Source of the DNA: a virus
UHGV virus genome: UHGV-0110022
Strand: one strand, 5' to 3'
DNA length: 48,769 nucleotides
The translations under genes were made by a program, and so were the position numbers. Positions 7,346 through 46,265 of this stretch are shown in pieces. The notes under the pieces were generated by a model, which saw only the letters and a program-made list of their open reading frames with translations, was not told the DNA's origin and did no database searches. The stretch's first letter is position 1. Every line of letters begins with the position of its first letter.

Positions 7346-7668
7346 CGACGTTAACTCAATGCCAGCAGCAGGTGCTGGATATGCTGATTTCTTACCAGAA
7401 AGAGCGTGGCTTTCCGCCAACCAATCAGGAGGTGGCAACCATGCTGGGATACCGTTCAGTGAATGCAGCGGTGGAGCATCTTCGCGCACTGGAGAAAAAA
7501 GGCGTCATCACGATAAAGCGTGGCGTGGCCCGGGGAATAACGCTTCATACCGCGGTGAAGGACGACGACAGCGAGGCGGTCGGGATTATCCGCTCACTGC
7601 TTGCCGGTGAGGAAAACGCCAGGCTGCGTGCAGCCCACTGGTTACATGAGAGGGAGCTGAAAGTATGA
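7342..7668 (+). CDS. LexA N-terminal DNA-binding-domain protein (no peptidase domain)
   Basis: Resembles LexA residues 1-70 (QQQVLDMLISYQKERGFPPTNQEVATMLGYRSVNAAVEHLRALEKKGVI); only 108 aa. Confidence 0.6.
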   Translation: MTTLTQCQQQVLDMLISYQKERGFPPTNQEVATMLGYRSVNAAVEHLRALEKKGVITIKRGVARGITLHTAVKDDDSEAVGIIRSLLAGEENARLRAAHWLHERELKV

Positions 7669-9893: not shown

Positions 9894-10646
9894 ATGAACC
9901 TTGAAGCTTTACCAAAATATTACTCCCCAAAATCTCCAAAATTGAGTGATGACGCACCGGCGACAGGCTCGGGTGGTTTAACAATTACAGATGTGATGGC
10001 TGCGCAGGGGATGGTGCAGTCGAAAGCACCGCTTGGGTTTGCCTTATTCCTGGCAAAAGTTGGTGTTCAGGATCCTCAGTTTGCGATTGAAGGTCTGCTC
10101 AATTACGCGATGGCACTGGATAACCCGACATTGAACAAATTGAGTGAAGAAACCCGGCTACAGATCATTCCTTACCTTGTGAATTTTGCCTTTGCTGATT
10201 ATTCCAGGTCTGCGGCAAGTAAGGCTCGCTGTGAGCGTTGTGCTGGTACTGGATTTCATAATGTATTGCGCGAAGTGGTGAAACACTCCAGAAGCGGGGA
10301 GTCTGTTATCAAAGAAGAGTGGGTGAAGGAACTATGTCAGCATTGTCATGGTAAGGGAGAAGTCAGCACAGCGTGCAGAGGGTGTAAGGGTAAAGGTATT
10401 GTCCTGGATGAAAAAAGAACCCGGCTTCATGGCACGCCTGTTTATAAGATTTGTGGGCGTTGCAATGGAAACCGGTTTAGCCGTTTACCAACCACACTGG
10501 CGCGGCTTCATGTCAAGAAGCTGGTACCAGACCTGACGGATTATCAGTGGTACAAAGGATATGCAGATGTCATTGATAAACTGATTACAAAGTGCTGGCA
10601 GGAAGAGGCATATGCTGAGATGCAATTGAGAAAAGTGACGAAATAA
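9894..10646 (+). CDS. late-gene antiterminator Q-like protein (250 aa) with four CxxCxGxG zinc-finger repeats
   Basis: Position immediately upstream of a late-promoter-like region and the lysis cassette; size matches QuuQ-type Q proteins. Confidence 0.55.
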   Translation: MNLEALPKYYSPKSPKLSDDAPATGSGGLTITDVMAAQGMVQSKAPLGFALFLAKVGVQDPQFAIEGLLNYAMALDNPTLNKLSEETRLQIIPYLVNFAFADYSRSAASKARCERCAGTGFHNVLREVVKHSRSGESVIKEEWVKELCQHCHGKGEVSTACRGCKGKGIVLDEKRTRLHGTPVYKICGRCNGNRFSRLPTTLARLHVKKLVPDLTDYQWYKGYADVIDKLITKCWQEEAYAEMQLRKVTK

Positions 10647-10791: not shown

Positions 10792-12045
10792 ATGATGATA
10801 TTGTTTATGCAGGTTGTTACATGTATGGGCGGAAAAATGGATATCTTTGAGTCGTTTAAAGCAGAGAAGCAGAAAAACCATAAAGTTAATATTTACTATA
10901 CTCCTTCGAAACCAGTTTCTTCACCTTCGAATTTGAGAGGGAGGAATGAAGAAATACAGAAGATTTTAGCAGCATTAACAACCCCTGGTCGCCATTGTAT
11001 GATCTATGGTGATCGTGGTATCGGCAAAAGTTCCCTTGCTCTATCTACTCTTGAGGGAGGAAAAGAGCATGAGATTTTACCAGAAATAGTTTTTCAATAT
11101 CGCTGTATAAAAAATACAACGTTTAAAGACATTATTGAAAAAGCTGCTATTTTTATCGATGAAGCCTATAAACATGATAAAGTTGAAACTACTAAGAAGT
11201 ATGGTGCTAGAGCTCGTTTTTTAGATTTATTCAGCTTGGAAGGCTCTAGGGAAGAAAAAATTACTATTGAAAAAGAAGAGTTGACGGCAAATAAAGCTGC
11301 TTCTGTTTTACATCACCTCGAGTCTGTACTTCTTATTGATGAATTTGATGTTGTCAAAGAAGAAGTAAAGCATGAAGTAGCAGAGTTTGTAAAGCAACTT
11401 AGCGATGCTGGAAGTCCATTTAAAGTTTTGATAGTTGGCATAGGTTCTGATGGTGCAGCTTTAATGGCTGGGCATCAGTCAGTAATACGTTGTATGCATG
11501 AAATAAAGTTGCCGCGTGTTGAAGATAAATATCTATCAGAGATAATCGAAAGCGGTGAAAATGGATTGGGTTTGACTTTTTCGCAGCCAATAAAAAAATC
11601 TATTATCGAGATTAGCAGCGGATTCCCTTATTTTACTCATTTATTATGTAAGGAATGTGCAGAAGAGGCTATCCGCCAGTCAAAAACTATTATTGATAGA
11701 AGTATTTTTGAACAAGCCTTGATCGTTGCAGTGAAAAATACTGAAGGTCAATTAAAACGTTGTTACGATCTCGCCGTAACATCTTCTAGAACCGACATGT
11801 ATCCCAAGATCCTTTTATCTGCGGCAAAATTTAAAAATGAACAATTTAGCGTCAAAAATTGGATAGAGCAAATTGCTGAAGATCATGGCTTAGAGCTTAC
11901 ATATGGAAGTATGAATAATTATACTGGTAAGTTAATAAAAGCTGAGCGAGGAGAAATTCTTCAGTTAGTTAGAAGAGGGGTATATAAAATCACGGATCCA
12001 AGAATGCCAAGTTATATTCTTATGTGCCACAATGCGATCCCTTAA
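10792..12045 (+). CDS. stand-alone AAA+-type P-loop ATPase (cargo gene)
   Basis: Walker A GDRGIGKSS, Walker B LLIDEFD; strongly AT-rich relative to flanks; start uncertain (ATG at 10792, 10825 or 10837). Confidence 0.6.
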   Translation: MMILFMQVVTCMGGKMDIFESFKAEKQKNHKVNIYYTPSKPVSSPSNLRGRNEEIQKILAALTTPGRHCMIYGDRGIGKSSLALSTLEGGKEHEILPEIVFQYRCIKNTTFKDIIEKAAIFIDEAYKHDKVETTKKYGARARFLDLFSLEGSREEKITIEKEELTANKAASVLHHLESVLLIDEFDVVKEEVKHEVAEFVKQLSDAGSPFKVLIVGIGSDGAALMAGHQSVIRCMHEIKLPRVEDKYLSEIIESGENGLGLTFSQPIKKSIIEISSGFPYFTHLLCKECAEEAIRQSKTIIDRSIFEQALIVAVKNTEGQLKRCYDLAVTSSRTDMYPKILLSAAKFKNEQFSVKNWIEQIAEDHGLELTYGSMNNYTGKLIKAERGEILQLVRRGVYKITDPRMPSYILMCHNAIP

Positions 12046-24476: not shown

Positions 24477-24625
24477 CGGCTGAATACCTTACTGATCGCT
24501 TCTTTGATTGCGCCAGCTACTGGCGCATTAATCCCTTCGAATTGCTGAATATGCCGATCAGTGAAATTCCCTTGCTGGTCAGTCAGGCAAACAGGATAGA
24601 GCAGGAGAAACGCACACATGGCTGA
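24207..24625 (+). CDS. tail assembly chaperone, long form via programmed -1 frameshift at T_TTT_TTC (24458-24464)
   Basis: Slippery heptamer in the 0 frame 12 nt before the stop; the -1 frame continues open to 24625, overlapping the tape-measure start. Confidence 0.5.
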
Positions 24626-26450
24626 ATTTGAGCTTAAGGCGTTGATCACCGGTGTCGACAGGCTTTCTCCCGCGCTGTCGAAAATGCAAAAGAAAATCCG
24701 GGGATTTAAACGCCAGGCGGAAGAAGCGTCACAGGGTGGGCTGGCGCTTGGTGGCGGACTGGCAGCGGGTCTGACGCTTTCCCTGAAATCTTATGCCGAT
24801 CAGGAAAACGCCGCCACCGGGCTGAAAGTCGCCATGATGGATGCGAATGGCGAGGTTGGAAAGAGCTTTCAGGACATCAATAAACTGGCTATTGGCCTGG
24901 GTAACCAGCTACCCGGTACAACGGCTGATTTCCAGAACATGATGCAGATGCTGGTGCGTCAGGGGATCCCGGCAGAAAACATTCTTGGCGGTGTGGGTAA
25001 AGCGACAGCTTATCTTGCGGTACAACTGAAAAAAACACCGGAAGCGGCTGCTGAGTTTGCTGCAAAGATGCAGGATGCTACCGGAACGGCGTCAGAAGAC
25101 ATGATGGGGCTGTTCGACACTATCCAGAAGGCGTTTTATCTGGGCGTTGACGATACCAACATGTTGTCCTTCTTCACTAAAACCAGTTCTGTTCTGAAGA
25201 TGGTGAACAAGGACGGTCTTCAGGCTGCACAGAGCCTTGCCCCCATCAGCGTCATGATGGATCAGATGGGGATGAACGGGGAGTCGGCAGGTAATGCCCT
25301 GCGAAAAGTTATCCAGTCCGGATTAAGCGTTAAGAAAATCAGGGACGTCAATAAAATCATGGCCCGCCAGAAACTCGGGGTACAGCTCGATTTTACTGAC
25401 GGCAAAGGAAGTTTTGGCGGTCTTGATAACATGTTCAGGCAACTGGCAAAGCTGCGAAAACTGACCGACGTTAAGCGAACAGGTGTACTTAAGGCAATAT
25501 TTGGTGATGATGCCGAAACCCTTCAGGTGGTTAATGCACTAATCGATAAAGGAAAGGATGGCTACGATCAGATCCAGCAGAAGATGAATAAACAGGCCAG
25601 CCTGAATAAACGTGTTCAGGCCCAGCTTGGTACGCTGTCCAACCTGTGGGAGGCAATGACGGGGACCGCAACTAACGGCCTTGCGGCTATTGGCGGCGCA
25701 TTTTCTGGTGACGCCAAAAATATCACGCAATGGCTGGGGGAGTTGGGGGAGAAATTCACGAAGTTTGCGGATGAAAATCCCCGGGTTATTCGCGGCGTCG
25801 TCGGGCTTGCTGCCGGTCTTGCGATTCTGAAACTGGGATTGATGGGCGTGGGCAGTGCCATCAGTATCGTCAGCAGGATCATGTCGATGACGCCGATTGG
25901 CATGATTGCGACGGCGATTGCCCTGGCTGCGGGATTAATTATCACTAACTGGGATGTTGTCGGACCTTATTTTAAGAAACTCTGGGAAACCATTAGTCCT
26001 TATTTTGAGGCTGGCTGGGAACTTCTGAAGAAGGTTTTTGCCTGGTCGCCGCTGGGGATGGTGATCAATAACTGGGGACCGGTTGTTAAGTGGTTTCAGG
26101 ATATGTGGGATAAGCTGAAGCCGATTATTGAATGGTTTACCGACAGTTCCGGTGACACGGTCGATGCCATTAACTCGGCGCAGTGGGGCGCGGGTGCTTA
26201 TGATGCTTATGGGACGGGAATACCGGCACGGGGATACACTCCTTATCCGGCGGTGGATCCGGCTCAGGCAAACAACGCCTCCGATGCCACAGGCTCGAAT
26301 CCCTTCATGATTAATAAAGCTACCGCGCCAAAAGTTGATGGTGAGATCAAGGTATCATTTATAAATATGCCACCAGATATGCGGGTTACGGAAACACGCT
26401 CCAGTGGCATTGATATAAATCACGATGTTGGCTATACCCGATTTTGGTAG
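24618..26450 (+). CDS. tail tape measure protein
   Basis: 610 aa, helical N-terminal region, Gly/hydrophobic central segment; AGGAG RBS. Confidence 0.85.
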   Translation: MAEFELKALITGVDRLSPALSKMQKKIRGFKRQAEEASQGGLALGGGLAAGLTLSLKSYADQENAATGLKVAMMDANGEVGKSFQDINKLAIGLGNQLPGTTADFQNMMQMLVRQGIPAENILGGVGKATAYLAVQLKKTPEAAAEFAAKMQDATGTASEDMMGLFDTIQKAFYLGVDDTNMLSFFTKTSSVLKMVNKDGLQAAQSLAPISVMMDQMGMNGESAGNALRKVIQSGLSVKKIRDVNKIMARQKLGVQLDFTDGKGSFGGLDNMFRQLAKLRKLTDVKRTGVLKAIFGDDAETLQVVNALIDKGKDGYDQIQQKMNKQASLNKRVQAQLGTLSNLWEAMTGTATNGLAAIGGAFSGDAKNITQWLGELGEKFTKFADENPRVIRGVVGLAAGLAILKLGLMGVGSAISIVSRIMSMTPIGMIATAIALAAGLIITNWDVVGPYFKKLWETISPYFEAGWELLKKVFAWSPLGMVINNWGPVVKWFQDMWDKLKPIIEWFTDSSGDTVDAINSAQWGAGAYDAYGTGIPARGYTPYPAVDPAQANNASDATGSNPFMINKATAPKVDGEIKVSFINMPPDMRVTETRSSGIDINHDVGYTRFW

Positions 26451-26478
26451 CCAGGATTCCCCTCACAGGTATTGCTGG

Positions 26479-26506
26479 TTGTAAGTCATAAATAGAGTGA
26501 TAGAAT
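26479..26506 (+). promoter_or_regulatory. sigma70-like promoter for cargo gene
   Basis: TTGTAA(26479-26484)-16 nt-TAGAAT(26501-26506). Confidence 0.4.
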
Positions 26507-26541
26507 TAATGCACATTTAGAAAAATGTTAATAGGCGAAAA

Positions 26542-27072
26542 ATGAAAGGCTATATCACAGCAAGTGTAATTCTTGGAGCAGCGGCTATTTTTTCATCTCT
26601 CATAATCTCTGGCAACATCTCCTTTAAAGATGAACATATTATTCAGTTATCTGGAGGAGCCATAAAACTTGGTGATGTTTATAAAGAAAATAAATTGATA
26701 AGTGCAAAGATTATTTTTCCAGATAATCAGGGTGAACAGATTCTTGTTGTCGACGGCAATCCTGAAAACTTTAAGGAGGATTTTCAGGAGAAATTAAATA
26801 AAGTAATAAAAACTTTAAATGCGTCAAAGAAAAAAGATGAAGAGAAAGTTAGCCTGGATAATTTAAGTGTTATTGAAGAGTCTAAACTAGAGCTCGTTTC
26901 TGCGGTGCGTTACTCTGCTCAGTATGTTCCTATGTTTACTCTGACGCTGGACAAAAAAGAAATTACCATGCCTAAAAATACGGTAATATTTCCATTTGCC
27001 AGCGATGAAACAGCTAAGTATTTAAATGAACAACAGCAAAAGTATAAAGATTCGTTGTTTCTGACTCGCTAA
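26542..27072 (+). CDS. membrane-anchored hypothetical protein (176 aa), AT-rich cargo gene within the tail operon
   Basis: N-terminal hydrophobic anchor (ITASVILGAAAIFSSLIISG); AT-rich; own promoter and terminator. Confidence 0.6.
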   Translation: MKGYITASVILGAAAIFSSLIISGNISFKDEHIIQLSGGAIKLGDVYKENKLISAKIIFPDNQGEQILVVDGNPENFKEDFQEKLNKVIKTLNASKKKDEEKVSLDNLSVIEESKLELVSAVRYSAQYVPMFTLTLDKKEITMPKNTVIFPFASDETAKYLNEQQQKYKDSLFLTR

Positions 27073-27092
27073 TTAATAAAATTCATTACAAG

Positions 27093-27123
27093 GCCACCTT
27101 CTAATAGGTGGCTTTTTTATTTT
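27093..27123 (+). terminator. rho-independent terminator
   Basis: GCCACCT-tctaat-AGGTGGC followed by TTTTTTATTTT. Confidence 0.7.
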
Positions 27124-27133
27124 CGGAGTGTAT

Positions 27134-28462
27134 ATGACGTGGAAAGACAGGCTTCAGGATGCGTCATTTCGAGGTGTGCCGTTTAAGGTTGAAGAAGAAA
27201 GTGCGGGAACCGGTCGCCGTGTGGAAACACATGAATACCCGAACCGCGACAAGCCCTATACCGAAGATCTGGGAAAAGTCACTTTCCGCCCGTCCATCAC
27301 AGCTTATGTGGTGGGAGATGACTGCTTTGACCAGCGCGATCGCCTGATTGAAGCGCTGAATAAACCAGGTCCCGGCACGCTTGTCCACCCGACATATGGT
27401 GAGCTGAAAGTCTGTGTTGACGGGGAAGTTCGGGTCAGCACATCGAAAAGTGAAGGGCGTATTGTCCGCTTTGACCTGAAGTTTGTCGAAGCAGGAGAAC
27501 TCTCTTACCCCACATCAGGTGCGGCGACGGCGCAGACGCTGATGTCATCCTGTTCTGCACTGGATGACTGCATCAGTGACAGCTTCAGCGGTTTCAGTAT
27601 CGATGGTGTGGCGGATTTCGTGCAGAACGACGTTATCGGTAATGCCAGCATAATGCTGGGGTATGTTTCTGATGCGATGAAAGTGGTGGATTCTGCCGTA
27701 TCGGATGCCGCCAGGCTGTTGCAGGGGGATATCTCGGTACTTCTGCCGCCGCCATCGTCAGGCAAAAATTTCGTTGAGCAGGTGCAGAAAATGTGGCGTA
27801 CCGGGAAACGCCTTTATGGTAACGCCAGCGACCTGGTCACCATGATCAAAACGCTTTCTGGTGTCAGCCTCGGCAGCGATTTGCAACCGCGCGGCGTCTG
27901 GAAAACGGACAGTAAAACCACCGCCACAGCGACGCAGCAGCGTAACATGGTTGCCAGCACCCTTCGTACGACTGCAATCAGCGAAGCGGCGTATGCCGTT
28001 ACCCGATTGCCTGCGCCAACAACTTCTGCGGTGATGCAGAATGCCGCAGTGGGGCAGTCAACAACACCCGCGCAGAGCTCCGGCTGGCCTGCCGTCACGC
28101 ATCCGGTGCTGAACAATGCACCGGCGGTGAAAAACACGGTTGACCTGCCAACGTGGGAAGAACTGACCGACATTCGCGACACACTGAATACGGCAATTGA
28201 TAAGGAGTTGTCCCGTACAACTAGTGATGCGCTGTTTCTGGCTCTGCGCCGGGTGAAAGCAGATCTGAATGCGGATATCAACACGCGCCTTGAACAGTCT
28301 GCTCGGATCATTCAGCGCACGCCGGATGAGGTTTTACCCGCGCTGGTGCTGGCGGCGACCTGGTTTGATAACGCGGCGCGTGACGCGGACATTATCCGGC
28401 GTAATGCCATTACGCATCCCGGCTTTGTGCCGGTGATCCCTCTGAAGGTGCCAGTGCAATGA
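27134..28462 (+). CDS. DNA circulation protein (Mu gpN-like)
   Basis: N-terminal motif MTWKDRLQDASFRGVPFKVEEE; GGAG RBS. Confidence 0.8.
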   Translation: MTWKDRLQDASFRGVPFKVEEESAGTGRRVETHEYPNRDKPYTEDLGKVTFRPSITAYVVGDDCFDQRDRLIEALNKPGPGTLVHPTYGELKVCVDGEVRVSTSKSEGRIVRFDLKFVEAGELSYPTSGAATAQTLMSSCSALDDCISDSFSGFSIDGVADFVQNDVIGNASIMLGYVSDAMKVVDSAVSDAARLLQGDISVLLPPPSSGKNFVEQVQKMWRTGKRLYGNASDLVTMIKTLSGVSLGSDLQPRGVWKTDSKTTATATQQRNMVASTLRTTAISEAAYAVTRLPAPTTSAVMQNAAVGQSTTPAQSSGWPAVTHPVLNNAPAVKNTVDLPTWEELTDIRDTLNTAIDKELSRTTSDALFLALRRVKADLNADINTRLEQSARIIQRTPDEVLPALVLAATWFDNAARDADIIRRNAITHPGFVPVIPLKVPVQ

Positions 28463-32134: not shown

Positions 32135-32884
32135 ATGCATCGCATAGACACGAAAACCGCGCAGAAGGATAAGTTCGGCGCGGGTAAGAACGGTTTTACC
32201 CGTGGTAACCCCCAGACCGGCACGCCTGCCACCGATCTGGATGATGACTACTTTGACATGTTGCAGGAAGAGCTTTGCAGCGTGGTGGAGGCATCCGGTG
32301 CCAGTCTGGAGAAGGGGCGGCACGACCAGTTGCTTACCGCGCTTCGTGCGCTGCTGTTAAGCCGCAAGAATCCGTTTGGCGATATCAAATCGGATGGCTC
32401 AGTGAAAACGGCTCTCGAAAACCTTGGTTTGGGAGAAGGCTCTGCATTACCTGTTGGTGTGCCTGTTCCATGGCCTTCAGCCACACCGCCAACAGGCTGG
32501 CTGAAATGCAACGGTGCGGCATTTTCTGCTGAAGAATACCCGGAACTGGCAAAGGCTTACCCGACAAATAAATTGCCTGATTTACGTGGTGAGTTCATTC
32601 GTGGCTGGGATGACGGAAGAGGAATAGATACTAACCGTAGCTTGCTTTCATCACAGGGCGATGCCATTCGAAATATAATTGGTGCATTAGTGGATGTCAG
32701 GTTTAATAACTACCCTTCTGATTCTGGCGTTTTTACAACCAGCGTCATCGGAGATGCTTCATCTGATTCAATTAAAGGTGGTTATGCAAAGCGAGTAACA
32801 TTCGATGCTTCCAGAGTTGTTCCAACTGCAAACGAAAACCGACCTCGTAACATTTCCTTTAATTATATCGTGAGGGCTGCCTGA
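32135..32884 (+). CDS. tail fibre protein (constant N-terminus plus currently expressed variable C-terminus)
   Basis: Conserved tail-fibre N-terminus ([40 protein letters not shown]); contains inversion crossover site at 32412-32437. Confidence 0.8.
32412..32437. repeat. Pin recombination site (left inverted repeat, gix/hix-like)
   Basis: CTCGAAAACCTTGGTTTGGGAGAA; inverted match to 34237-34262 (shared TTGGTTTGGGAGAAG). Confidence 0.65.
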
Positions 32885-33486
32885 TGAATAAAGTTGTCTT
32901 AAATAACGAACTCATTGCCATAAAAGCGGGAGACATAACCGTTTATAATTATGATGGTGAAACGCGGGAATATATTTCCACATCAACAGAATATCTTGCC
33001 ATTGGTGTCGGCATTCCGGCATGTTCCTGTTTAGATGCCCCTAGCCCATACAAAACTGGTTATGCAATTTGCCGTTCTGAAGATTTTAACTCGTGGATAT
33101 ATGTGCCAGACCATCGTGGTGAAATTGTCTATAGCACTGAAACAGGAGAATCAAAAGAAATCACAGCTCCGGGTGATTATCCTGAAAATACAACCACTAT
33201 CGTCCCATTAACGCCATACGATAAATGGGATGGTGAGAAATGGGTGACAGATACTGAGGCACAATATGGTGCCGCAGTAAAAGCGGCAGAAGTACAGCGA
33301 CAGTCACTAATTGATACTGCAATGGCTTCCATTAGTCTGATTCAACTGAAATTGCAGGCCGGGAGGAAGCTGACGCAGACAGAAACCACCCGACTAAACG
33401 CTGTGCTGGATTACATTGACGCGGTGACGGCAACGGATACCAGCACCGCGCCGGATGTCATCTGGCCTGAACTGCCGGAGGAGTAG
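32884..33486 (+). CDS. tail fibre assembly protein (currently expressed orientation)
   Basis: C-terminal Tfa motif LDYIDAVTATDTSTAPDVIWPELP. Confidence 0.8.
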   Translation: MNKVVLNNELIAIKAGDITVYNYDGETREYISTSTEYLAIGVGIPACSCLDAPSPYKTGYAICRSEDFNSWIYVPDHRGEIVYSTETGESKEITAPGDYPENTTTIVPLTPYDKWDGEKWVTDTEAQYGAAVKAAEVQRQSLIDTAMASISLIQLKLQAGRKLTQTETTRLNAVLDYIDAVTATDTSTAPDVIWPELPEE

Positions 33487-33889
33487 GCCATTCAATATCT
33501 GGCGCACCAGAAGTATCGACCAGTTCCAGTGCGTCCAGATAATCCAGCCACAAATTATATTGCGCCAGTTCCTCACCTTTCAGACGACCAATCGCCGCTT
33601 TACCAGGCCATTGTTTACTGTTCATGTATTCGTTGGCCTGATTAACTAATCGCTGTTTATTTGATTCAGCGATTGAGATTAATTCTTCGCTGGTAAGTGG
33701 TGGCGCATCCTGCCATGCTGGAAAACCATTTTTATCTGAACCAAGTATTTTACCATCAGGCCATGCAACTCCTGCGAACTCAGAATAAATAGTAAAGTTT
33801 ATTTTCGTAGCGTTCTCAGGAATGGTTTGGCTATCTGGTGAAATATAAAATCCCGAATCAGAGGGATTAAAATAATATGTCTTTTCCAT
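33458..33889 (-). CDS. alternative tail fibre assembly protein
   Basis: C-terminal Tfa motif LDYLDALELVDTSGAPDIEWPTPP; convergent with the plus-strand tfa. Confidence 0.75.
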   Translation of the reverse strand: MEKTYYFNPSDSGFYISPDSQTIPENATKINFTIYSEFAGVAWPDGKILGSDKNGFPAWQDAPPLTSEELISIAESNKQRLVNQANEYMNSKQWPGKAAIGRLKGEELAQYNLWLDYLDALELVDTSGAPDIEWPTPPAVQAR

Positions 33890-33891
33890 AG

Positions 33892-34262
33892 TTAATACCC
33901 CACTGCCATCCAGTAAATTGAATTTGTTGTAGCAGAAGTGTAAGTAAATCTGATTTTAGTTCTGTTGGTACTTCCAATATCAAAGCCCACAGAACGGGCA
34001 GAAGGATCATTAGTTGAAATAAGAGCGTTTACCGAACGACAAGCAGCAGGGAAAGCTACAGGTAATGTTATATCAACTGTTCCAACACTTCCTCCGGTTG
34101 GTGAGACAGAAAAACTCCCCCATTGAATAATCATCCCCCCAGGTAATTTCTGGTATCCATTGGCGGTCAATGAGTTACCAAAGTTGTTCATATCCGGTAC
34201 CTGATTTTCTCCTGTCCCCACATTCCGTTTTGCCGCTTCTCCCAAACCAACGTTTATGAAAA
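33892..34262 (-). CDS. promoterless alternative tail-fibre C-terminal segment
   Basis: Open frame runs through the right recombination site (..INVGLGEAAK..) matching ..[10 protein letters not shown].. at the left site, so inversion would fuse it to the constant N-terminus. Confidence 0.55.
34237..34262. repeat. Pin recombination site (right inverted repeat)
   Basis: TTCTCCCAAACCAACGTTTATGAAAA; internal dyad symmetry typical of Hin/Gin-family sites. Confidence 0.65.
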
Positions 34263-34316
34263 TGCAGAAATAACGAGCAAATGGCATCATTCCTGCTTTT
34301 GTCAGAGGGATCCACT

Positions 34317-34871
34317 ATGCTTATTGGCTATGTACGCGTATCAACAAATGACCAGAACACCGATCTACAACGTAATGCGTTGAACTGTGCAGGATGCGAG
34401 CTGATTTTTGAAGACAAGATAAGCGGCACAAAGTCCGAAAGACCAGGATTGAAAAAACTGCTAAGGACATTATCGGCAGGTGACACACTGGTTGTCTGGA
34501 AGCTGGATCGGCTGGGGCGTAGTATGCGGCATCTGGTCATTCTGGTTGAGGAGTTGCGCGAACGTGGCGTTAATTTTCGCAGCCTGACGGATGCTATTGA
34601 TACCAGCACACCGATGGGGCGTTTTTTCTTTCATGTGATGGGTGCCCTGGCTGAAATGGAACGAGAACTGATTGTTGAACGAACAAAAGCTGGACTGGAA
34701 GCTGCTCGCGCACAGGGACGAATTGGGGGACGTCGTCCCAAACTTACACCAGAACAATGGGCGCAGGCCGGACGATTAATTGCAGCAGGAATTCCTCGCC
34801 AGAAGGTGGCGATCATCTATGATGTTGGTGTATCGACACTGTATAAGAAGTTTCCGGTCGGAGATAAATGA
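34317..34871 (+). CDS. pin: serine DNA invertase (Pin/Gin/Hin family)
   Basis: N-terminal MLIGYVRVSTNDQNTDLQ with catalytic Ser, C-terminal HTH; 184 aa. Confidence 0.85.
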   Translation: MLIGYVRVSTNDQNTDLQRNALNCAGCELIFEDKISGTKSERPGLKKLLRTLSAGDTLVVWKLDRLGRSMRHLVILVEELRERGVNFRSLTDAIDTSTPMGRFFFHVMGALAEMERELIVERTKAGLEAARAQGRIGGRRPKLTPEQWAQAGRLIAAGIPRQKVAIIYDVGVSTLYKKFPVGDK

Positions 34872-35197: not shown

Positions 35198-35680
35198 ATG
35201 CTCGACAATATGAATGAATATGAGGAATTCTTGTTCCATAGGATTGATGATTCGGATTTATTGACAGGATTTGTTATTGGCCATTTAGTGATTGAACATC
35301 TTCTTGAAGAGATAATTCTAGGCTATGACATCAAGCTCAGAAAACATTTTCTTACATTGAGTCATAGTAAAAAAATAAACTTCATAAATTCTTTGGAACT
35401 AATACCTGATAACGTAGCAAGTTGTTTGCAAAGTATTAACAAAATAAGAAATAAATTTGCTCATCAATTAGGTTACAAGCCGAATAAAGGTGATTTATTG
35501 AACCTAATTGAGCAATGTATAGATAGTTTTAACGATATGACCGACGGACTTGAACAACTTCATGGTGCTCTAAAACAATGTGATGATCTACTTGAAACAC
35601 AAGAAAAAGACGGAGTTGGGCTAGCTGATCTCTTTATACAAGTGGTCTACGATCTAGAGGGGTACGCCAAAAAATATTGA
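35198..35680 (+). CDS. HEPN-motif protein (160 aa), candidate abortive-infection/RNase-type cargo
   Basis: R-x4-H motif in IRNKFAHQ; AT-rich; lies between invertase and att fragment. Confidence 0.45.
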   Translation: MLDNMNEYEEFLFHRIDDSDLLTGFVIGHLVIEHLLEEIILGYDIKLRKHFLTLSHSKKINFINSLELIPDNVASCLQSINKIRNKFAHQLGYKPNKGDLLNLIEQCIDSFNDMTDGLEQLHGALKQCDDLLETQEKDGVGLADLFIQVVYDLEGYAKKY

Positions 35681-41189: not shown

Positions 41190-41438
41190 GTGATTAACGT
41201 TCTCCCTGGATGGTGTTTCTGTGTTTCTAACGCAAGGAGAACCAAAATTAAGTATTTTAATCCAGAACTTGTCTTCGAGGCTTTAAAGGCCGGAAGCCAG
41301 ACGCGAAATGCAATAAACAGCCAGCGAGCAGCCGCACAACGGCAAGGATATTTCGAACACGCTGAAAGATTGCGTAAAGGAATCGAACTTTACGATCAAT
41401 GGAAAGCTGAACAGGCTGAAACCACCACCAACGAATAA
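41190..41438 (+). CDS. hypothetical protein (start uncertain)
   Basis: ORF with internal AAGGAG at 41233 but no in-frame ATG after it. Confidence 0.3.
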   Translation: MINVLPGWCFCVSNARRTKIKYFNPELVFEALKAGSQTRNAINSQRAAAQRQGYFEHAERLRKGIELYDQWKAEQAETTTNE

Positions 41439-41456
41439 ACCAGAAGGAGAAACCAA

Positions 41457-41633
41457 ATGAGCGAAATCCAGAAGAAGAAACCAGCCGGAACATTCGTAAA
41501 ACTGCCGGATGAAGTGTTTAGTACTTTGTTCAAAGAGGCGCGAGCGAGAGGCGTAACAGTGCAGGAGATGTTAATTGACGCTGCAACCACACTTTCCACA
41601 TCAATTAAGAACGGAGAACGTTCTACCAAATAA
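41457..41633 (+). CDS. small DNA-binding-like protein (58 aa, possible ribbon-helix-helix), not in the ORF track
   Basis: AGAAGGAG RBS 7 nt before ATG; translation MSEIQKKKPAGTFVKLPDEVFSTLFKEARARGVTVQEMLIDAATTL... Confidence 0.4.
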   Translation: MSEIQKKKPAGTFVKLPDEVFSTLFKEARARGVTVQEMLIDAATTLSTSIKNGERSTK

Positions 41634-41647
41634 GGATACACCCTAAC

Positions 41648-42388
41648 ATGACTGACATTATAAACAGTAAGGCTTTTAGTTTCACCAACACCGAAGACGC
41701 ATTTAACGAATGCACCAGGATCACCAATCTTAAAACAGGCGTAACAGAGTCCCTGTCTCCTGCTGATAAGCAGTTTTACGTCAGAATGCGCCATCGTTAT
41801 TATCGCTTTGCGATAGAGTTGGGCGGTACTTATTACGATGACATTGATCAACTTGGTGCAAGTATTGGTGTCAGCTCGGCTACGGCAACACGTATTGTTG
41901 CAAAGTTGAAGAAAATCGGACTGATCGCCAGTAATAAGCCAAAGCGCTCTAACCAATGGACTATAACGCCACTCACGCCGCAAAACTTCACCTTTGAACG
42001 TGATCGTAATGCGATGGAACGTGATTCCGCGCCGGAATGGGTAGATTGTCTGAAACATCCCGTGTTTGGCAAAGCTAAAGAAGACGTAGCGCCAGAGGAA
42101 GAAAAACAGCAGTCAGTGCCAGAAGAGGCCAAAGCAGATCCGAAGCCGGAGAAGCCAAAGAAAATGCCTACGAAGAAACCCGCCTCCATTCCAGCTAAAG
42201 ATATTAAGATAGAGCCAGTTAATTTAAACTTTCTTGAGGGTTATCGGGATGAATGGGAGAATCCTGAAAAGAATCTACCAGTTTCACAACATCCGAAAAT
42301 CAGATGGCTACTTATTAACGGATACCTGGACACAGAGAAGAATCCAAAACTTAAACCAATCTACGAGGAAATAGAACATTTATGCTGA
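41648..42388 (+). CDS. HTH-containing protein (246 aa), possible replication/regulatory protein
   Basis: Winged-helix-like segment IGVSSATATRIVAKLKKIGLI; Lys/Pro/Glu-rich linker. Confidence 0.45.
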   Translation: MTDIINSKAFSFTNTEDAFNECTRITNLKTGVTESLSPADKQFYVRMRHRYYRFAIELGGTYYDDIDQLGASIGVSSATATRIVAKLKKIGLIASNKPKRSNQWTITPLTPQNFTFERDRNAMERDSAPEWVDCLKHPVFGKAKEDVAPEEEKQQSVPEEAKADPKPEKPKKMPTKKPASIPAKDIKIEPVNLNFLEGYRDEWENPEKNLPVSQHPKIRWLLINGYLDTEKNPKLKPIYEEIEHLC

Positions 42389-42843
42389 AAACGGTTATAC
42401 CCAAACAATACAACGAACGTGATCTTAACATCATCCATCTTGCCAGTTTATTAAATCCAGAAGTTGAAAGAGGTGTTGCATTCGAACAAGCGCAAGAACT
42501 TGTAGATGTTTACGCTGAGCGAGGTGAATCAAGTTACGCTAATGCTCTTGTTACGCTATTCAATGCAGCGATGAAGCCACCGAAAGAGATAGAATGTAAA
42601 ATGACATCCCCACATCTTCACGATAAGAATCTGTCTCCTTCGGAACGTCTGGTATTAATGCACCTCGAATCACTGCCATCATTAACAAATGTGAAACAGG
42701 AGTCAATAGCGATAGTGTTGGGGATAAGTGTGGCAACTGTATCCAGTGCGATTCGCAAGCTCCGCCGCAATGATTATCTAACTACTACGTTAATCAAACC
42801 TGGTCGCGGTAAAGGATGCGACATTACACTTACGACTAAATAA
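42382..42843 (+). CDS. winged-helix transcriptional regulator-like protein (153 aa)
   Basis: HTH-like segment IAIVLGISVATVSSAIRKLRRNDYL. Confidence 0.4.
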   Translation: MLKTVIPKQYNERDLNIIHLASLLNPEVERGVAFEQAQELVDVYAERGESSYANALVTLFNAAMKPPKEIECKMTSPHLHDKNLSPSERLVLMHLESLPSLTNVKQESIAIVLGISVATVSSAIRKLRRNDYLTTTLIKPGRGKGCDITLTTK

Positions 42844-42947
42844 CAACAATCGGGAAACTTTTATGATTACTGCTTTATGGTGGTTCACCATATTCTATGG
42901 CGTTTACGTTATAACCAGACAAGGAGTTTCCCCTCTACGAGGAATGA

Positions 42948-43331
42948 ATGGGACGAAAAGAACGAAGTAACCTTGTTAGAATCGAAAAAGCCACACGCAT
43001 CAGCAAACGTAAATACACCTCTTCTCTACAAGACCTCGCACGAGAGTCTATTCCTGGTGAGATGGTGACAACTATTAAAGAATATCCCGCAGTAGTACCA
43101 AATGGATTAGAGTTTGAACTATTGCAGGATGTTCTATCGTCAACGGATAACGTTTATTACAAACCACGACGCAGACGCGAATATATTATAGATAGTAGCC
43201 ATCTCAAGAAATGGCAAATAGCAGGATTTGAACATTACGCCGATTATATTGGGTATTGTCAAACCTGGGGGCTATCCCAGCACACACAAGAGTTTGATAT
43301 TCTCTTTGACGACAAGGAAAACAATGAATAA
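42948..43331 (+). CDS. hypothetical protein (start uncertain)
   Basis: ORF only. Confidence 0.25.
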   Translation: MGRKERSNLVRIEKATRISKRKYTSSLQDLARESIPGEMVTTIKEYPAVVPNGLEFELLQDVLSSTDNVYYKPRRRREYIIDSSHLKKWQIAGFEHYADYIGYCQTWGLSQHTQEFDILFDDKENNE

Positions 43332-43662
43332 TAAAACTATGGACACAGTGAACACCCTAATTAACTCTTTCCACGACAACTGGCATTTACCAACCTTACA
43401 GCTTGTTAATGCAGCGTGGCGTGAGAGAACGCCCTCCGCGCTTCTGGAAGCGGTGCAATACACTGAACAGGCAATCACTGCCCTTGAACATCTGCAAACG
43501 TCTGTAGCTCGTTTGGTGCAGCGTGACGGCAGTTCGATCACACCAGAAGAAGCGTGGCGTGTAGCTAATGACCTTGAGGAGCTTGCTTGCTCTCTGCAAT
43601 ACATCACCGTTGAACTCGGAGAGCTTTCCATCCAGATCGCGGAAGAATGCGCCATAACATAA
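43324..43662 (+). CDS. hypothetical protein (112 aa)
   Basis: AAGGAAA RBS before ATG 43324. Confidence 0.35.
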   Translation: MNNKTMDTVNTLINSFHDNWHLPTLQLVNAAWRERTPSALLEAVQYTEQAITALEHLQTSVARLVQRDGSSITPEEAWRVANDLEELACSLQYITVELGELSIQIAEECAIT

Positions 43663-43677
43663 AAGTTACTAAATGTC

Positions 43678-43706
43678 TTGACATTATGTGCTATATGTGT
43701 CATAAT
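43678..43706 (+). promoter_or_regulatory. near-consensus sigma70 promoter
   Basis: TTGACA(43678-43683)-17 nt-CATAAT(43701-43706). Confidence 0.55.
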
Positions 43707-44236
43707 GAGTTATAGGGTAAGTATTCGAATCACTTCACCCTCGTATGTCAATACGCACTCCTTGAGAATGCCGTTCCCATAGCGGCATTCTCTCCCTCTG
43801 AATGCTATTTCTGAAAGTGTTGGTTCTTTGTCTTGTTTGTTCCGAAGGAATGCGCGGGATGTAATATCTCGTTGTGTTGGTATTGCATCGCAATCACCGC
43901 GCATCTCCGACTTTTTCAGAAAGGGCATTCGCTCTTTGCTCATTCATTCCGTTAGGATGAATGTAGTCAGACTGAATAAACGCCGTCAGCGGTAGTTACG
44001 TTCAGGCTGGCAATCTCTTATTACTATTCCAGTGGTGATATTGAGATTCCATTCCCACTTCTCGCCATGACAGAAGGGCTTCTGTTTTGAAGTGGGAGCA
44101 ATGACGGGCGATCCTACTTCTGTTATTCGTAACAGTTGCGCCCTTCATTTTTTCAAGAAGCCATTCTTTAACATCATAATCCTCCGAAACGAAAATGATT
44201 TTAACAGAATGCTTTCTAACAAGGGCATATTCTCCA

Positions 44237-44258
44237 GGGGCTTAATCGCCCCTTTTTA
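44237..44258 (+). terminator. rho-independent terminator at the end of a structured leader
   Basis: GGGGC-ttaatc-GCCCC followed by TTTTT. Confidence 0.55.
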
Positions 44259-44328
44259 ACAATCTGCATGTAACACTTCCGTTATTAATGGAAGGATAAA
44301 CGCAGTTATAACGCGAAGGAACAACACA

Positions 44329-44544
44329 ATGTTCTTAATAAACAATCGCGACCGAATCCTAAAATACAAATCCGAAGTGATTCAAGTTAATCCTGAGTTA
44401 ATAGCTAAAGTGGCTGAAATGGCAGGATGTACCGTTGAAGAAATAGAAAAAGCTGTAGACCAGTATTTCCCTTCTGAGGACACACCTCAACTTAGTATGC
44501 AGGAACGGATCGCAATCAAATCCAAGGAAATCAAACAACAATGA
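44329..44544 (+). CDS. hypothetical protein (71 aa)
   Basis: AAGGAA RBS; first gene of the capsid-like cluster. Confidence 0.4.
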   Translation: MFLINNRDRILKYKSEVIQVNPELIAKVAEMAGCTVEEIEKAVDQYFPSEDTPQLSMQERIAIKSKEIKQQ

Positions 44545-44900
44545 TTGTAGACCTAACCGAACTTTTCCCAATTCGTAAGAGTTTCACTGACGTATTGAGC
44601 TACGCCACTGATTCTTTTGCAGTCGTAGAAGGCCGTGTTTTCGACCTGCCAGCAGATATTGAATGCGGCGATGTTATCGGCGCTGATGGCGCTCTATACA
44701 CCTCCGGCGATGATGCCTTTGTGGTGGTAAGTGATTTCGTGAGTGCTGGCGACGGTAAAACCGTGAATGTCCTACGTGCGCCTAATGTTGGTAGCTTCGT
44801 AGCACTGAAAGCCGACAACCTGCACGCAGCTAATCACGCCGCAGCTATCACCACGCTCGAATCCAAAGGGTTCGTATGCCGTCCATTCTTCACCTCTTAA
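44541..44900 (+). CDS. head decoration protein-like (D-like, putative)
   Basis: 119-aa Gly/Ala/Val-rich protein immediately upstream of an E-like capsid gene; ATGA overlap. Confidence 0.4.
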   Translation: MIVDLTELFPIRKSFTDVLSYATDSFAVVEGRVFDLPADIECGDVIGADGALYTSGDDAFVVVSDFVSAGDGKTVNVLRAPNVGSFVALKADNLHAANHAAAITTLESKGFVCRPFFTS

Positions 44901-44916
44901 TCAAGGAAGATAAATA

Positions 44917-45948
44917 ATGAGTAAAATCGCAATTGGGCGTGAGATGGTCGATTTAGCGCCAATCTTCCAGGCTCTGCCGGAACGTAACTATCTTATGAAT
45001 GCCCTCGACCTATTCGACGGGGTAGGTGTTCAGAATCCGAAAGTGGTGGTGACACAGCTTCTGGATGATAACTACAGCCTGTTTAACACCCCGCAGAGCC
45101 GTTATTCATCAAACCACGACACTACCGCGCGTCAGAATGGCAAAGAATACCTTATCGAGATTCCTTGGTTTGCAAGGGAAGATGAGTTTAAACCTGTAGA
45201 CGTACAAGGCCGCAGAGTGCAGGGAACGGACTACGAGCAAACCGTTACCGACCTGTACACCGAATACACTGGCAAACATAAGATTGCTTATCTGCGTACC
45301 CGTGAGTCTTACCTGGCCCGTGCTCTGTTCAAAGGTGAAGTTTATACGCCTGCAACTGATGACCTACTGATCTCTTATGCTGAACTGTTCGGTGTGGTGC
45401 CAATGACAGCCAGCGTGAGCACAGCGACAGCGGCACAGGATTTTGATGCGATCTTAGACAAAGTTCAGGCTGCCGCAGGTGGATTGGCTGGACAGATTGA
45501 ACGAGTGATCGTATTCGCTAAACCTGCTGCATTTAGCCAGATTCGCTTCTCTGACAGTATGTCTAAGGCGTTCCAGTATGTAGCGCCATATGACGACCGT
45601 AACCTATTCTACCAGCGTCACGAGCTTCTCCCTGGTGTTAGTACGTTTAGCCTACCTGGTGCGCCTATCGACATTGTTAAAGTGACAGATCCGCTGATCC
45701 TTGCACAGATGCCAGATGATGCTGACATGGTGGCGGTTCCGGTGTTCAGTAAAGGCACAAATGCTTATCAGAACATCTACGGCGCTGCCTCTGGTAACTT
45801 TGCGCTGATCGATGCTGCACCTGCTGAATACTACTCTTGGGGCTACCTGAGCGAGCGCGGCGATGCTTACCACGTTATGCACGAAAACAGCGCATTACCA
45901 GTGAACCATGCGTTAGGTATGCAGGTGAAGATCACCATCACTGCTTAA
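44917..45948 (+). CDS. major capsid protein, E-like family (putative)
   Basis: 343 aa, lambda gpE-like size and composition; follows decoration-like gene. Confidence 0.5.
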   Translation: MSKIAIGREMVDLAPIFQALPERNYLMNALDLFDGVGVQNPKVVVTQLLDDNYSLFNTPQSRYSSNHDTTARQNGKEYLIEIPWFAREDEFKPVDVQGRRVQGTDYEQTVTDLYTEYTGKHKIAYLRTRESYLARALFKGEVYTPATDDLLISYAELFGVVPMTASVSTATAAQDFDAILDKVQAAAGGLAGQIERVIVFAKPAAFSQIRFSDSMSKAFQYVAPYDDRNLFYQRHELLPGVSTFSLPGAPIDIVKVTDPLILAQMPDDADMVAVPVFSKGTNAYQNIYGAASGNFALIDAAPAEYYSWGYLSERGDAYHVMHENSALPVNHALGMQVKITITA

Positions 45949-46067
45949 TGAGCAAGCGGGAGCCTGACCCGCTGGAAATAATCAGGCTATTGAATATGGC
46001 GTGTGAACGTTGGGAACATCTCCCCAGTGTTCCCGCCCTTTTTTATTTCCAGAATGAGGAAAGATAA

Positions 46068-46265
46068 ATGCAAGTGATTGTAAAAAGCGCGGGGCTTCAC
46101 CTCGCCGTAAATGCTGAAACAGCAGAAGAGTTATTAAATCTGGCGGGAGTGTGTCGTGTGCTTGAAATAGATCACGGTCATCTACGTCAGTTATTACATC
46201 GTGGGCGTAGTGTATCAGATGCACTTAATTATCTGGTGAGTAAAAAAGGCGGTGGCGATGCTTGA
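46068..46265 (+). CDS. hypothetical protein (65 aa)
   Basis: GAGGAAA RBS. Confidence 0.35.
   Translation: MQVIVKSAGLHLAVNAETAEELLNLAGVCRVLEIDHGHLRQLLHRGRSVSDALNYLVSKKGGGDA

What the first reader, a model, noticed from the sequence alone, without database searches (positions are those of the whole stretch)
26479..27123. Self-contained cargo cassette inserted between tape measure and DNA-circulation genes
Seen: a promoter-like TTGTAA-16-TAGAAT, an AT-rich ORF encoding a 176-aa protein with an N-terminal membrane anchor, and a strong terminator (GCCACCT..AGGTGGC plus T-run) sit inside an otherwise tightly coupled tail operon. Inference: an autonomously expressed lysogenic-conversion gene, possibly envelope-acting (superinfection exclusion or receptor masking); insertion within the tail cluster is uncommon.
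Basis: partly seen in the sequence, partly recalled or inferred. Interest (0 to 1): 0.6.

Follow-up and report, generated by a model that had tools for sequence, protein, structure and literature searches.

The report
Membrane-protein moron in prophage tail operon
An SfV-like E. coli prophage carries an add-on ("moron") gene between two tail genes; it encodes an uncharacterised inner-membrane protein facing the periplasm, which is an ordinary kind of phage cargo but a reasonable candidate for blocking entry of rival phages.

Summary
Window 26451-27133 is an AT-rich insert (about 34% GC, flanks 51-56%) between the tape measure gene and the DNA-circulation gene. It holds a promoter-like site, a 176-aa ORF and a strong terminator hairpin.

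It is not a tail component. Phages SfV, SfI, SfII and 689R6 have only 63 nt at this site. In 77 related loci the slot is empty or holds one of four unrelated AT-rich cargo genes, one of them on the opposite strand. A Lelliottia chromosome keeps only this cassette as a prophage relic.

The protein belongs to PHROG 5485 (function unknown). It has one N-terminal transmembrane helix and a periplasmic alpha/beta domain of about 145 aa. The model is confident (pLDDT 92) but has no relative in Pfam, PADLOC or PDB. The gene is under strong purifying selection.

Family members at 30-55% identity sit beside tape measure or hub genes in at least four tail-module types, and also in non-phage islands.

My best reading is a classic moron in a cargo hotspot, probably a superinfection-exclusion factor acting at genome entry. 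The function and independent transcription are inferred, not shown. Interest is moderate (0.4): a new member of a known kind.

The parts
24618..26450 (+). Tail tape measure gene (left flank of the slot)
   Evidence: PF10145 PhageMin_Tail, E 1.3e-26. Annotated as tape measure in SKA5, SfI and SfV. Homology between slot alleles ends at its last few codons.
26451..27133 (+). Whole cargo cassette (683 nt), replaced by 63 nt in the empty allele
   Evidence: Gap length is allelic: 63, 496, 588/589, 683 or 684 nt in 77 related loci. GC about 0.34 against 0.51-0.56 in the flanks. Diversity is 0.26% against 1.4-1.9% in the flanks among 22 carriers. No flanking target-site duplication or terminal inverted repeats.
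26479..26506 (+). Sigma-70-like promoter candidate TTGTAA-16-(TG)n-TAGAAT
   Evidence: among the 13 best sites in the window; 23 of 1000 local shuffles reach its score. Function not shown. Homologous cassettes have weaker or differently spaced matches.
26542..27072 (+). Cargo ORF, 176 aa, PHROG 5485: N-terminal TM helix (residues 2-23) plus periplasmic alpha/beta domain
   Evidence: PHROG 5485, 3.8e-108; all 57 family members match; pN 0.08-0.31 against pS 0.57-0.82; topology analysis. AF2 pLDDT 92, pTM 0.77; no Pfam, NCBIfam, PADLOC or PDB relative.
27090..27123 (+). Intrinsic terminator: 10-bp GC-rich stem, 6-nt loop, T-run
   Evidence: dG -15.6 kcal/mol, z -4.5. An equivalent hairpin is present in the other alleles, including the empty one.
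27134..28462 (+). DNA-circulation (Mu gp43-like) gene with its ribosome-binding site GGAG at 27125-27128 (right flank)
   Evidence: PF07157 DNA_circ_N, E 3.7e-34. Homology between alleles resumes at CGGAGTnTATATGACG.
9894..10646 (+). Q antiterminator gene; explains read-through of the internal terminator during lytic growth
   Evidence: PF03589 Antiterm, E 4.9e-53. The role in read-through is inferred from established lambdoid biology.

Best explanation
Window 26451-27133 is a moron, an accessory cassette. It occupies a recombinational cargo hotspot between the tape measure gene and the DNA-circulation/hub gene of an SfV-like temperate myovirus with Q-antiterminated late genes.

It encodes a non-structural protein of PHROG 5485. 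The protein is a bitopic inner-membrane protein with its N-terminus inside the cell, one transmembrane helix, and a folded alpha/beta domain of about 145 aa in the periplasm.

How it is expressed (inferred). In a lysogen it would be transcribed from its own weak-to-moderate sigma-70 promoter, and the terminator would insulate the downstream baseplate genes. During lytic growth it is read through as part of the Q-antiterminated late transcript.

Most likely function (inferred by analogy, not shown). It is a superinfection-exclusion factor that sits where an incoming tail tip, tape measure or hub complex must cross the periplasm and inner membrane, and it blocks genome entry by related phages. 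HK97 gp15, P22 SieA and TP-J34 Ltp act this way.

Confidence. The anatomical part (dispensable mobile cargo encoding a periplasm-facing membrane protein) is about 0.9. The exclusion function is about 0.4, and that is the figure given for the whole statement.
For: Dispensable and allelic:
- SfV, SfI, SfII and 689R6 span 1181 bp where the window spans 1801 bp, and the SfII gap is 63 nt.
- Among 77 loci with a DNA-circulation protein at least 98% identical, the slot is empty in 23. About 26 carry this gene, about 23 an unrelated 164/170-aa secreted protein, 5 a membrane-anchored PF12869 protein on the minus strand, and 1 a bPH_1 protein. All cargoes are 31-38% GC.

Mobile:
- The cassette is 5-7 times less diverse than its flanks among carriers.
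- It is at least 99% identical in 179 of 180 E. coli records, while the flanks range from 90 to 99%.

Selected independently of the phage:
- A Lelliottia chromosome next to icd keeps only about 120 nt of the tape measure 3' end, the cassette and its terminator, with the ORF intact.
- pN is far below pS in all pairs, including those with the relic.
- Distant members lie in integrative islands without tail genes.

Membrane topology:
- 57 family members share a single N-terminal uncharged run (median 23 aa). The N-flank averages +2 and the C-flank -0.5. One of 57 has a lipobox, and none has a second hydrophobic segment.
- AF2 models a helix at residues 2-23 followed by a compact sheet-and-helix domain (pLDDT 92).

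Expression logic:
- Promoter-like site and strong terminator.
- Q antiterminator present.
- One alternative cargo is antisense to the operon and so must have its own promoter.

Link to the injection apparatus:
- Family members sit immediately beside tape measure or hub genes in at least four tail-module types. These are the Mu type, SLT-tape-measure|x|Dit-like in L182, x|probable tape measure in L179, and hub|x|spike in L099.

Precedent:
[quoted passage not shown] SieA and Ltp escapes map to the conduit proteins and the tape measure (PMC3594210; PMC10883804).
Against: - No expression or phenotype data exist.
- Promoter-like elements are not consistently conserved in homologous cassettes.
- Some lineages have almost no room for a promoter (34 nt upstream in L098) or no terminator (13 nt to the next start codon in L096). 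In those phages the gene looks like an ordinary late-operon gene.
- Cargo divergence does not track whole tape measure divergence. L003 has tape measure 36% and cargo 53%; L093 has tape measure 75% and cargo 53%. There is no sign of co-evolution with the proposed target.
- Adjacency to tape measure genes may only reflect a permissive gap that also accepts unrelated cargo.
- Characterised tape-measure-directed exclusion so far concerns non-contractile tails.
Confidence: 0.4

Rival explanations
1. Host-fitness or lysogenic-conversion factor unrelated to phage exclusion. The periplasmic domain would modify or protect the envelope (stress tolerance, colicin or antimicrobial resistance, colonisation), and the prophage would carry it because it benefits the lysogen.
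For: All the cargo, mobility and topology evidence applies equally. The gene is retained in a decayed prophage relic and in non-phage islands. It occurs in E. coli from many hosts. Morons are known to have diverse non-phage roles such as Lom and Bor (PMC3594210).
Against: It does not explain the repeated placement beside tape measure or hub genes in several unrelated tail modules. There is no similarity to any known envelope, stress or virulence family.
Confidence: 0.25
2. Lytic-cycle accessory protein made with the tail genes from the late transcript. For example, it could stop progeny or sibling virions from injecting into the already infected or lysing cell, or help the periplasmic steps of the phage's own cycle. 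It would be useful but not essential.
For: The gene lies in the sense orientation inside the Q-dependent late operon. No terminator separates it from the tape measure gene. In L096 it ends 13 nt before the next gene with no terminator, and in L098 only 34 nt lie upstream. The slot association persists down to 30% identity. Promoter conservation is weak.
Against: Most homologous cassettes keep an AT-rich upstream spacer of 65-105 nt and their own terminator. A relic with no late promoter keeps the ORF intact. Members occur in islands with no phage late genes. Close functional relatives manage without it.
Confidence: 0.2
3. A genuine tail or baseplate structural or assembly component, or an injected membrane-inserting pilot protein, that some lineages have lost or replaced.
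For: It sits among tail-tip genes in several module types. Some ejection proteins carry TM segments (general knowledge).
Against: It is absent from plaque-forming phages with near-identical tail genes: SfV, SfI, SfII and 689R6. Unrelated proteins replace it, one on the opposite strand. Its composition is foreign. It is present in non-phage islands and in a relic. It has no PHROG structural annotation.
Confidence: 0.03

Closest known systems
HK97 gene 15 moron (gp15, YebO-related superinfection-exclusion protein)
   Same: Both are a compositionally distinct add-on with promoter and terminator, inside the tail operon directly beside the tape measure gene, encoding a small inner-membrane protein. 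[quoted passage not shown]
   Different: No sequence relationship: no Pfam hit, including YebO, even at E <= 10. HK97 is a siphovirus and gene 15 lies upstream of the tape measure gene. Here the phage has a contractile Mu-type tail, the gene lies downstream of the tape measure gene, and the protein has a large folded periplasmic domain. Function is untested here.
P22 SieA
   Same: Both are prophage-encoded inner-membrane proteins of about 160-180 aa. SieA blocks DNA delivery and escape maps to the trans-envelope conduit proteins.
   Different: SieA is predicted to have three TM segments and no sizeable periplasmic domain. This protein has a single TM and a periplasmic domain of about 145 aa. 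There is no homology. P22 is a podovirus.
TP-J34 Ltp / Tuc2009 Sie2009-type exclusion proteins
   Same: Both are membrane-tethered with an extracytoplasmic domain. For Ltp the target is the tape measure protein.
   Different: Ltp is a lipoprotein of Gram-positive hosts. Here there is no lipobox, no fold match, and the host is Gram-negative.
Cargo or defence hotspots of temperate phages and satellites (P2/P4 hotspots; the Q-lysis moron site of SfIV and Stx phages)
   Same: A fixed inter-gene position is flanked by conserved genes and filled with alternative, unrelated AT-rich genes that are exchanged by recombination (PMC3851460; PMC13586616, title and abstract).
   Different: This hotspot lies inside the tail-tip gene block of SfV-like phages and holds single small genes that mostly encode envelope-targeted proteins. 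None of them is recognised by PADLOC. My searches found no description of this site.

Membership tests
Moron (as defined by Juhala/Hendrix; PMC3594210) | Extra DNA present in one phage and absent at the same position in close relatives | tested here: met
   683 nt against 63 nt in SfII, SfV, SfI and 689R6 and in 23 IMG/VR loci.
Moron (as defined by Juhala/Hendrix; PMC3594210) | Nucleotide composition distinct from neighbouring genes | tested here: met
   GC 0.34 against 0.51-0.58. The same holds in every homologous locus.
Moron (as defined by Juhala/Hendrix; PMC3594210) | Own promoter | tested here: inconclusive
   A consensus-like site with extended -10 is present. It is only modestly above chance and not uniformly conserved in homologs.
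Moron (as defined by Juhala/Hendrix; PMC3594210) | Own terminator | tested here: met
   Strong hairpin plus T-run. A terminator also exists at the empty site, so the position is a backbone feature.
Moron (as defined by Juhala/Hendrix; PMC3594210) | Expressed from the repressed prophage | not testable with these tools
   Needs RNA-seq or 5'-RACE on a lysogen.
PHROG 5485 (phage protein family of unknown function) | Full-length match to the family profile | tested here: met
   E 3.8e-108 over residues 1-176 of 176. All 57 aligned relatives match.
HK97 gp15 / YebO family | Sequence homology to the YebO/gp15 family | tested here: not met
   No Pfam family at E <= 10. None of the 57 relatives matches it either.
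P22 SieA family | Polytopic inner-membrane protein with three TM segments, homologous to SieA | tested here: not met
   A single N-terminal hydrophobic segment; maximum 19-residue hydropathy elsewhere is 1.2 or less. AF2 shows one TM helix. No annotated exclusion PHROG is hit.
Lipoprotein exclusion factors (Ltp, T5 Llp, phi80/N15 Cor) | Lipobox with an invariant Cys for lipid anchoring | tested here: not met
   No Cys in the window protein. A lipobox-like motif occurs in 1 of 57 relatives, and 38 of 57 have no Cys at all.
Known anti-phage defence systems (PADLOC-DB v2) | Match to any defence-protein profile | tested here: not met
   0 families at E <= 10.
Mu-type tail structural or assembly proteins | Conserved presence in functional phages that share the tail module | tested here: not met
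   Absent from SfV, SfI, SfII and 689R6 and from about two thirds of related loci, and replaced by unrelated genes.
Superinfection-exclusion proteins (functional class) | Blocks infection by incoming phage after adsorption when expressed alone | not testable with these tools
   Requires plating, adsorption and injection assays.

The most novel reading that the evidence does not exclude
PHROG 5485 would be a previously unrecognised exclusion family for contractile-tailed temperate phages. Its periplasmic domain would intercept the tape measure, hub or spike complex of incoming virions. Its repeated genetic linkage to tape measure or hub genes, across at least four unrelated tail-module types, would exist because selection keeps the exclusion factor linked to the injection apparatus it is matched to, either to recognise it or to spare it. 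The tape measure/DNA-circulation slot of SfV-like phages would then be a dedicated hotspot for injection-stage defences, and the three other envelope- or membrane-associated cargoes there would work in a similar way.
Probability: 0.2. Interest if true: 0.65.

Novelty: new member of a known kind. Interest (0 to 1): 0.4.

Why it matters
Very few inner-membrane or periplasmic proteins that block phage genome entry have been characterised. The examples cited in the papers consulted (HK97 gp15, P22 SieA, TP-J34 Ltp, Tuc2009) concern non-contractile or short tails.

This family has several practical advantages as a test case. It is a single gene, widespread (78 clusters at 50% identity) and strongly conserved. 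Its model is confident and has no known fold relative. It sits in about 3% of complete E. coli genomes.

If it does exclude phages, escape mutants would show which tail-tip proteins of Mu-type phages cross the periplasm and inner membrane. The hotspot itself also gives a short list of three more small cargo genes to test.

If it does nothing to phages, it remains an ordinary uncharacterised moron.

Tried and rejected
Searches that found nothing useful:
- Pfam, NCBIfam and PADLOC on the protein gave no hits. Pfam on 57 relatives gave only scattered single-member noise.
- A PDB sequence-profile search gave nothing below E 0.6.
- tblastn against 50,697 phage genomes found no isolate carrying the gene.
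- A genome-contig scan with the close-family alignment found nothing.
- The distant clade is absent from IMG/VR.

Ideas tested and dropped:
- The ORF upstream of the family gene in the Pseudomonas-type islands is not a paralog.
- No target-site duplication or terminal inverted repeats flank the cassette, so I dropped a transposon or integron-like insertion mechanism in favour of allelic exchange by homologous recombination in the flanking genes.
- No tRNA or Rfam element lies in the window.

Considered and rejected:
- Outer-membrane receptor masking: there is no lipobox and no beta-barrel features.
- A cleaved secreted protein: the 23-residue uncharged run and the absence of a conserved AXA site favour a signal anchor, but cleavage is not excluded.

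Full report
**1. The observation**

- A single ORF (26542-27072, 176 aa) lies in a 683-nt gap. The gap runs from the stop codon of the tape measure gene (24618-26450; PF10145) to the ATG of the DNA-circulation gene (27134-28462; PF07157).
- GC drops to 0.32-0.37 across the gap, against 0.49-0.60 on either side.
- A TTGTAA-16-TAGAAT site with a TG extended -10 lies at 26479-26506. A 10-bp GC-rich hairpin followed by a T-run lies at 27090-27123.
- The hairpin is strong: -15.6 kcal/mol, z -4.5, and none of 200 shuffles folds as well.
- The promoter is only suggestive. The generic scan finds no excess of such sites in this 5-kb stretch (4 found, 5.3 expected). In my own scoring, the site is among the 13 best on both strands of the window, and 23 of 1000 local shuffles reach its score.

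**2. What the phage is**

The window is an SfV/SfI/SfII-like temperate myovirus in E. coli.
- It has a Mu-type contractile tail module.
- It also has a CI-like repressor (3402-4028, minus strand), a Q antiterminator (9894-10646) and a holin.
- By established lambdoid biology, Q-modified RNA polymerase reads through intrinsic terminators. That explains how a terminator can sit in the middle of the late operon (inference).

**3. The slot is a cargo hotspot**

- SfV, SfI, SfII and vB_EcoM-689R6 match both flanks but span 1181 bp where the window spans 1801 bp. In SfII the gap is 63 nt and holds only an annotated terminator.
- Phage SKA5 has a gap of the same size filled with an unrelated AT-rich ORF that has a signal peptide.
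- I measured the gap in 77 loci, mostly IMG/VR contigs whose DNA-circulation protein is at least 98% identical to the window's. The counts were as follows:

| Allele | Gap (nt) | Loci | Content |
|---|---|---|---|
| Empty | 63 | 23 | terminator only |
| A | 683 | about 26 | this gene |
| B | 684 | about 23 | SKA5-type secreted protein |
| C | 588/589 | 5 | membrane-anchored PF12869 (tRNA_anti-like) protein |
| D | 496 | 1 | PF08000 bacterial PH-domain protein |

- All cargoes are 31-38% GC.
- Cargo C is on the opposite strand to the tail operon, so it must have its own promoter.
- Homology between alleles stops at the last few tape measure codons and resumes at the DNA-circulation ribosome-binding site.
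- No target-site duplication or terminal inverted repeats flank the cassette. Exchange by homologous recombination in the flanks is the likely mechanism (inference).
- Every allele except C has a GC-rich hairpin plus T-run immediately before that ribosome-binding site. A terminator after the tape measure gene is therefore part of the backbone.

**4. The cassette is mobile and selected**

- Among 22 loci carrying cargo A, diversity within the cassette is 0.26%. It is 1.9% in the tape measure 3' end and 1.4% in the DNA-circulation 5' end.
- The cassette alone occurs in 178 of 5,426 complete E. coli genomes and is at least 99% identical in 179 of 180 records. The flanks range from 90 to 99%.
- Comparing the E. 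coli gene with Leclercia and Lelliottia homologs, synonymous sites are saturated (pS 0.57-0.82) while pN is 0.08-0.31. It is a real gene under purifying selection.
- In a Lelliottia amnigena chromosome the homolog lies next to icd. Similarity to the Leclercia prophage covers only the last ~120 nt of the tape measure gene, the cassette and its terminator (L007 7810-8568). The ORF is intact. A decayed prophage has kept just this gene.

**5. The protein**

- It matches PHROG 5485 (function unknown) over its full length. It matches nothing in Pfam, NCBIfam or PADLOC.
- A profile search found 78 clusters at 50% identity, nearly all 168-195 aa. All 57 that I aligned match PHROG 5485.
- The family shares three features:
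  - an N-terminal hydrophobic segment;
  - a juxtamembrane motif, N-[IV]-x4-G-x-[VI]-x-L-G-x-[VI]-Y-x-E;
  - a Y-x-S-E-x-x-P-x-F-x-L strand.
- The topology signals are consistent across the family:
  - the uncharged run has a median of 23 residues;
  - the N-flank averages +2 and the C-flank -0.5;
  - a lipobox occurs in 1 of 57 members;
  - there is no second hydrophobic segment.
- These signals indicate an N-in, C-out bitopic inner-membrane protein. A cleaved signal peptide is not excluded.
- With the 57-sequence alignment, AlphaFold2 gives pLDDT 92 and pTM 0.77. The model has a helix at residues 2-23, six beta strands and two long helices.

**6. Where the family lives**

Beside tape measure or hub genes:
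- Close homologs (52-58% identity) in Leclercia and metagenomes occupy the same slot between the tape measure and DNA_circ_N genes.
- So do members at 41% (P0028), 36-38% (L101-L103) and 30% (P0033) identity, in progressively more divergent Mu-type modules.
- In L182 the gene follows a 723-aa SLT-domain protein, which I take to be the tape measure from its size and position. It precedes a Dit-like hub gene.
- In L179 it directly precedes a 765-aa probable tape measure gene (assigned by position and size only). Two other small membrane or lipoprotein ORFs lie before it.
- In L099/L181 it lies between the hub genes and the Apex spike gene of a PhiTE/E217-type module.

Elsewhere:
- L183 and L184 are ordinary accessory regions.
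- The most distant clade lies in integrative islands next to a small serine recombinase, with no tail genes. That clade is absent from IMG/VR.

In every locus the gene is 33-40% GC against flanks of 43-60%. Synonymous sites are saturated, so the AT-richness is being maintained and is not simply a mark of recent arrival.

Two lineages lack part of the moron anatomy. L096 has no terminator and only 13 nt before the next start codon. L098 has only 34 nt upstream.

**7. Interpretation**

The anatomical conclusion is well supported. This is a dispensable, horizontally exchanged cargo gene in a multi-allelic hotspot, and it encodes a membrane protein that faces the periplasm.

The function is inferred. 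I favour superinfection exclusion at the genome-entry step (about 0.4) for three reasons:
- the protein is placed where an incoming tail tip must cross the periplasm and inner membrane;
- the family recurs beside genes of the injection apparatus;
- there is a direct precedent. HK97 gene 15 was the first moron described. [quoted passage not shown] SieA and Ltp behave analogously (PMC3594210; PMC10883804).

Evidence against this reading:
- there is no homology to any exclusion protein;
- cargo divergence does not track tape measure divergence;
- promoter conservation is inconsistent;
- the same slot accepts unrelated cargo, so the adjacency may be opportunistic.

The rivals are:
- an envelope fitness factor unrelated to phages (0.25);
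- a late-expressed lytic-cycle accessory protein (0.2);
- a structural role (0.03), essentially excluded.

**8. Novelty**

Morons in tail operons and cargo hotspots are known kinds of thing. My searches found no description of this particular hotspot or of PHROG 5485 function. I therefore rate it a new member of a known kind, with moderate interest (0.4). It is a clean, testable single-gene candidate rather than a surprise.

Noticed in passing
window 10792-12045 (+): AT-rich (about 35% GC) 417-aa ORF between the Q antiterminator and the holin. It matches nSTAND1/AAA_22/AAA_16 NTPase domains and, weakly, PADLOC candidate PDC-S59 (E 2e-7). It is probably a second, defence-type cargo at the classic Q-lysis moron site, the same site reported for SfIV (PMC3851460).
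   Followed up: partly
window 35198-35680 (+): Another AT-rich (about 32% GC) ORF of 160 aa with a marginal DUF4145 match. It lies just downstream of the tail-fibre invertase and is probably a third cargo slot.
   Followed up: partly
window 32135-34871: Invertible tail-fibre segment. It has a Collar-domain fibre gene and an assembly chaperone on the plus strand, an alternative fibre C-terminus (Gp53-like_C) and chaperone on the minus strand, and a Gin/Pin-type serine invertase (34281-34871; PF00239 plus HTH_7).
   Followed up: partly
L001 2133-2645 (SKA5); L065 about 2946-3390 (minus strand); L013 3060-3437: Three unrelated alternative cargoes occupy the same slot. One is a 164/170-aa secreted protein with no Pfam or PADLOC hit. 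One is a membrane-anchored PF12869 (tRNA_anti-like OB-fold) protein encoded antisense to the tail operon, with a bidirectional hairpin after the tape measure gene. One is a PF08000 bacterial PH-domain protein. Locus L048 carries a frameshifted copy of the SKA5-type gene.
   Followed up: partly
L002 2067-2105 (SfII) and the equivalent position in all alleles; window 27090-27123: A hairpin plus T-run sits between the tape measure and DNA-circulation genes even when the slot is empty. The related forms are CCCACTCCGGTGGG, CCCGCTTCGGCGGG and CCCGCCAACCGGCGGG. [quoted passage not shown]
   Followed up: partly
L007 7810-8568 (Lelliottia amnigena, next to icd at 6382-7632): A prophage relic consisting only of about 120 nt of the tape measure 3' end, the intact family gene and its terminator. 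How widely this relic is retained in the species could not be checked.
   Followed up: partly
L088-L092 (Pseudomonas-type MAGs and metagenomes): The distant family clade sits in small integrative islands directly next to a divergently transcribed small serine recombinase (about 189 aa). One island also carries an Mrr-type restriction enzyme, and another has a DUF5906 primase-like gene and a tyrosine integrase. The pairing with the recombinase is unexplained.
   Followed up: partly
L179 5821-7326: Three consecutive small envelope-targeted ORFs lie between the tail chaperone region and the probable tape measure gene. They are a lipoprotein-like ORF of 159 aa, a TM protein of 163 aa, and the family member. 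Together they form a cluster of membrane cargo at the HK97 gene 15 position.
   Followed up: no
window 26615-26587 (minus strand): An antisense promoter-like site (TTGCCA-17-AAAAAT with TG) lies inside the cargo ORF. It is probably a by-product of the AT-rich composition.
   Followed up: no
window about 41400-48100: A second phage-like element lies beyond the prophage's tail-fibre end. It includes a major capsid protein E homolog (44917-45948; PF03864) and several ORFs with no Pfam match.
   Followed up: no
plasmid records CP088862.1, NZ_CP146678.1, NZ_CP148394.1, NZ_CP081716.1: The cassette also occurs on 19-64 kb 'non-mobilizable plasmid' records in E. coli. These are phage-sized and may be excised or mis-assembled circular prophage genomes rather than true plasmids.
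   Followed up: no
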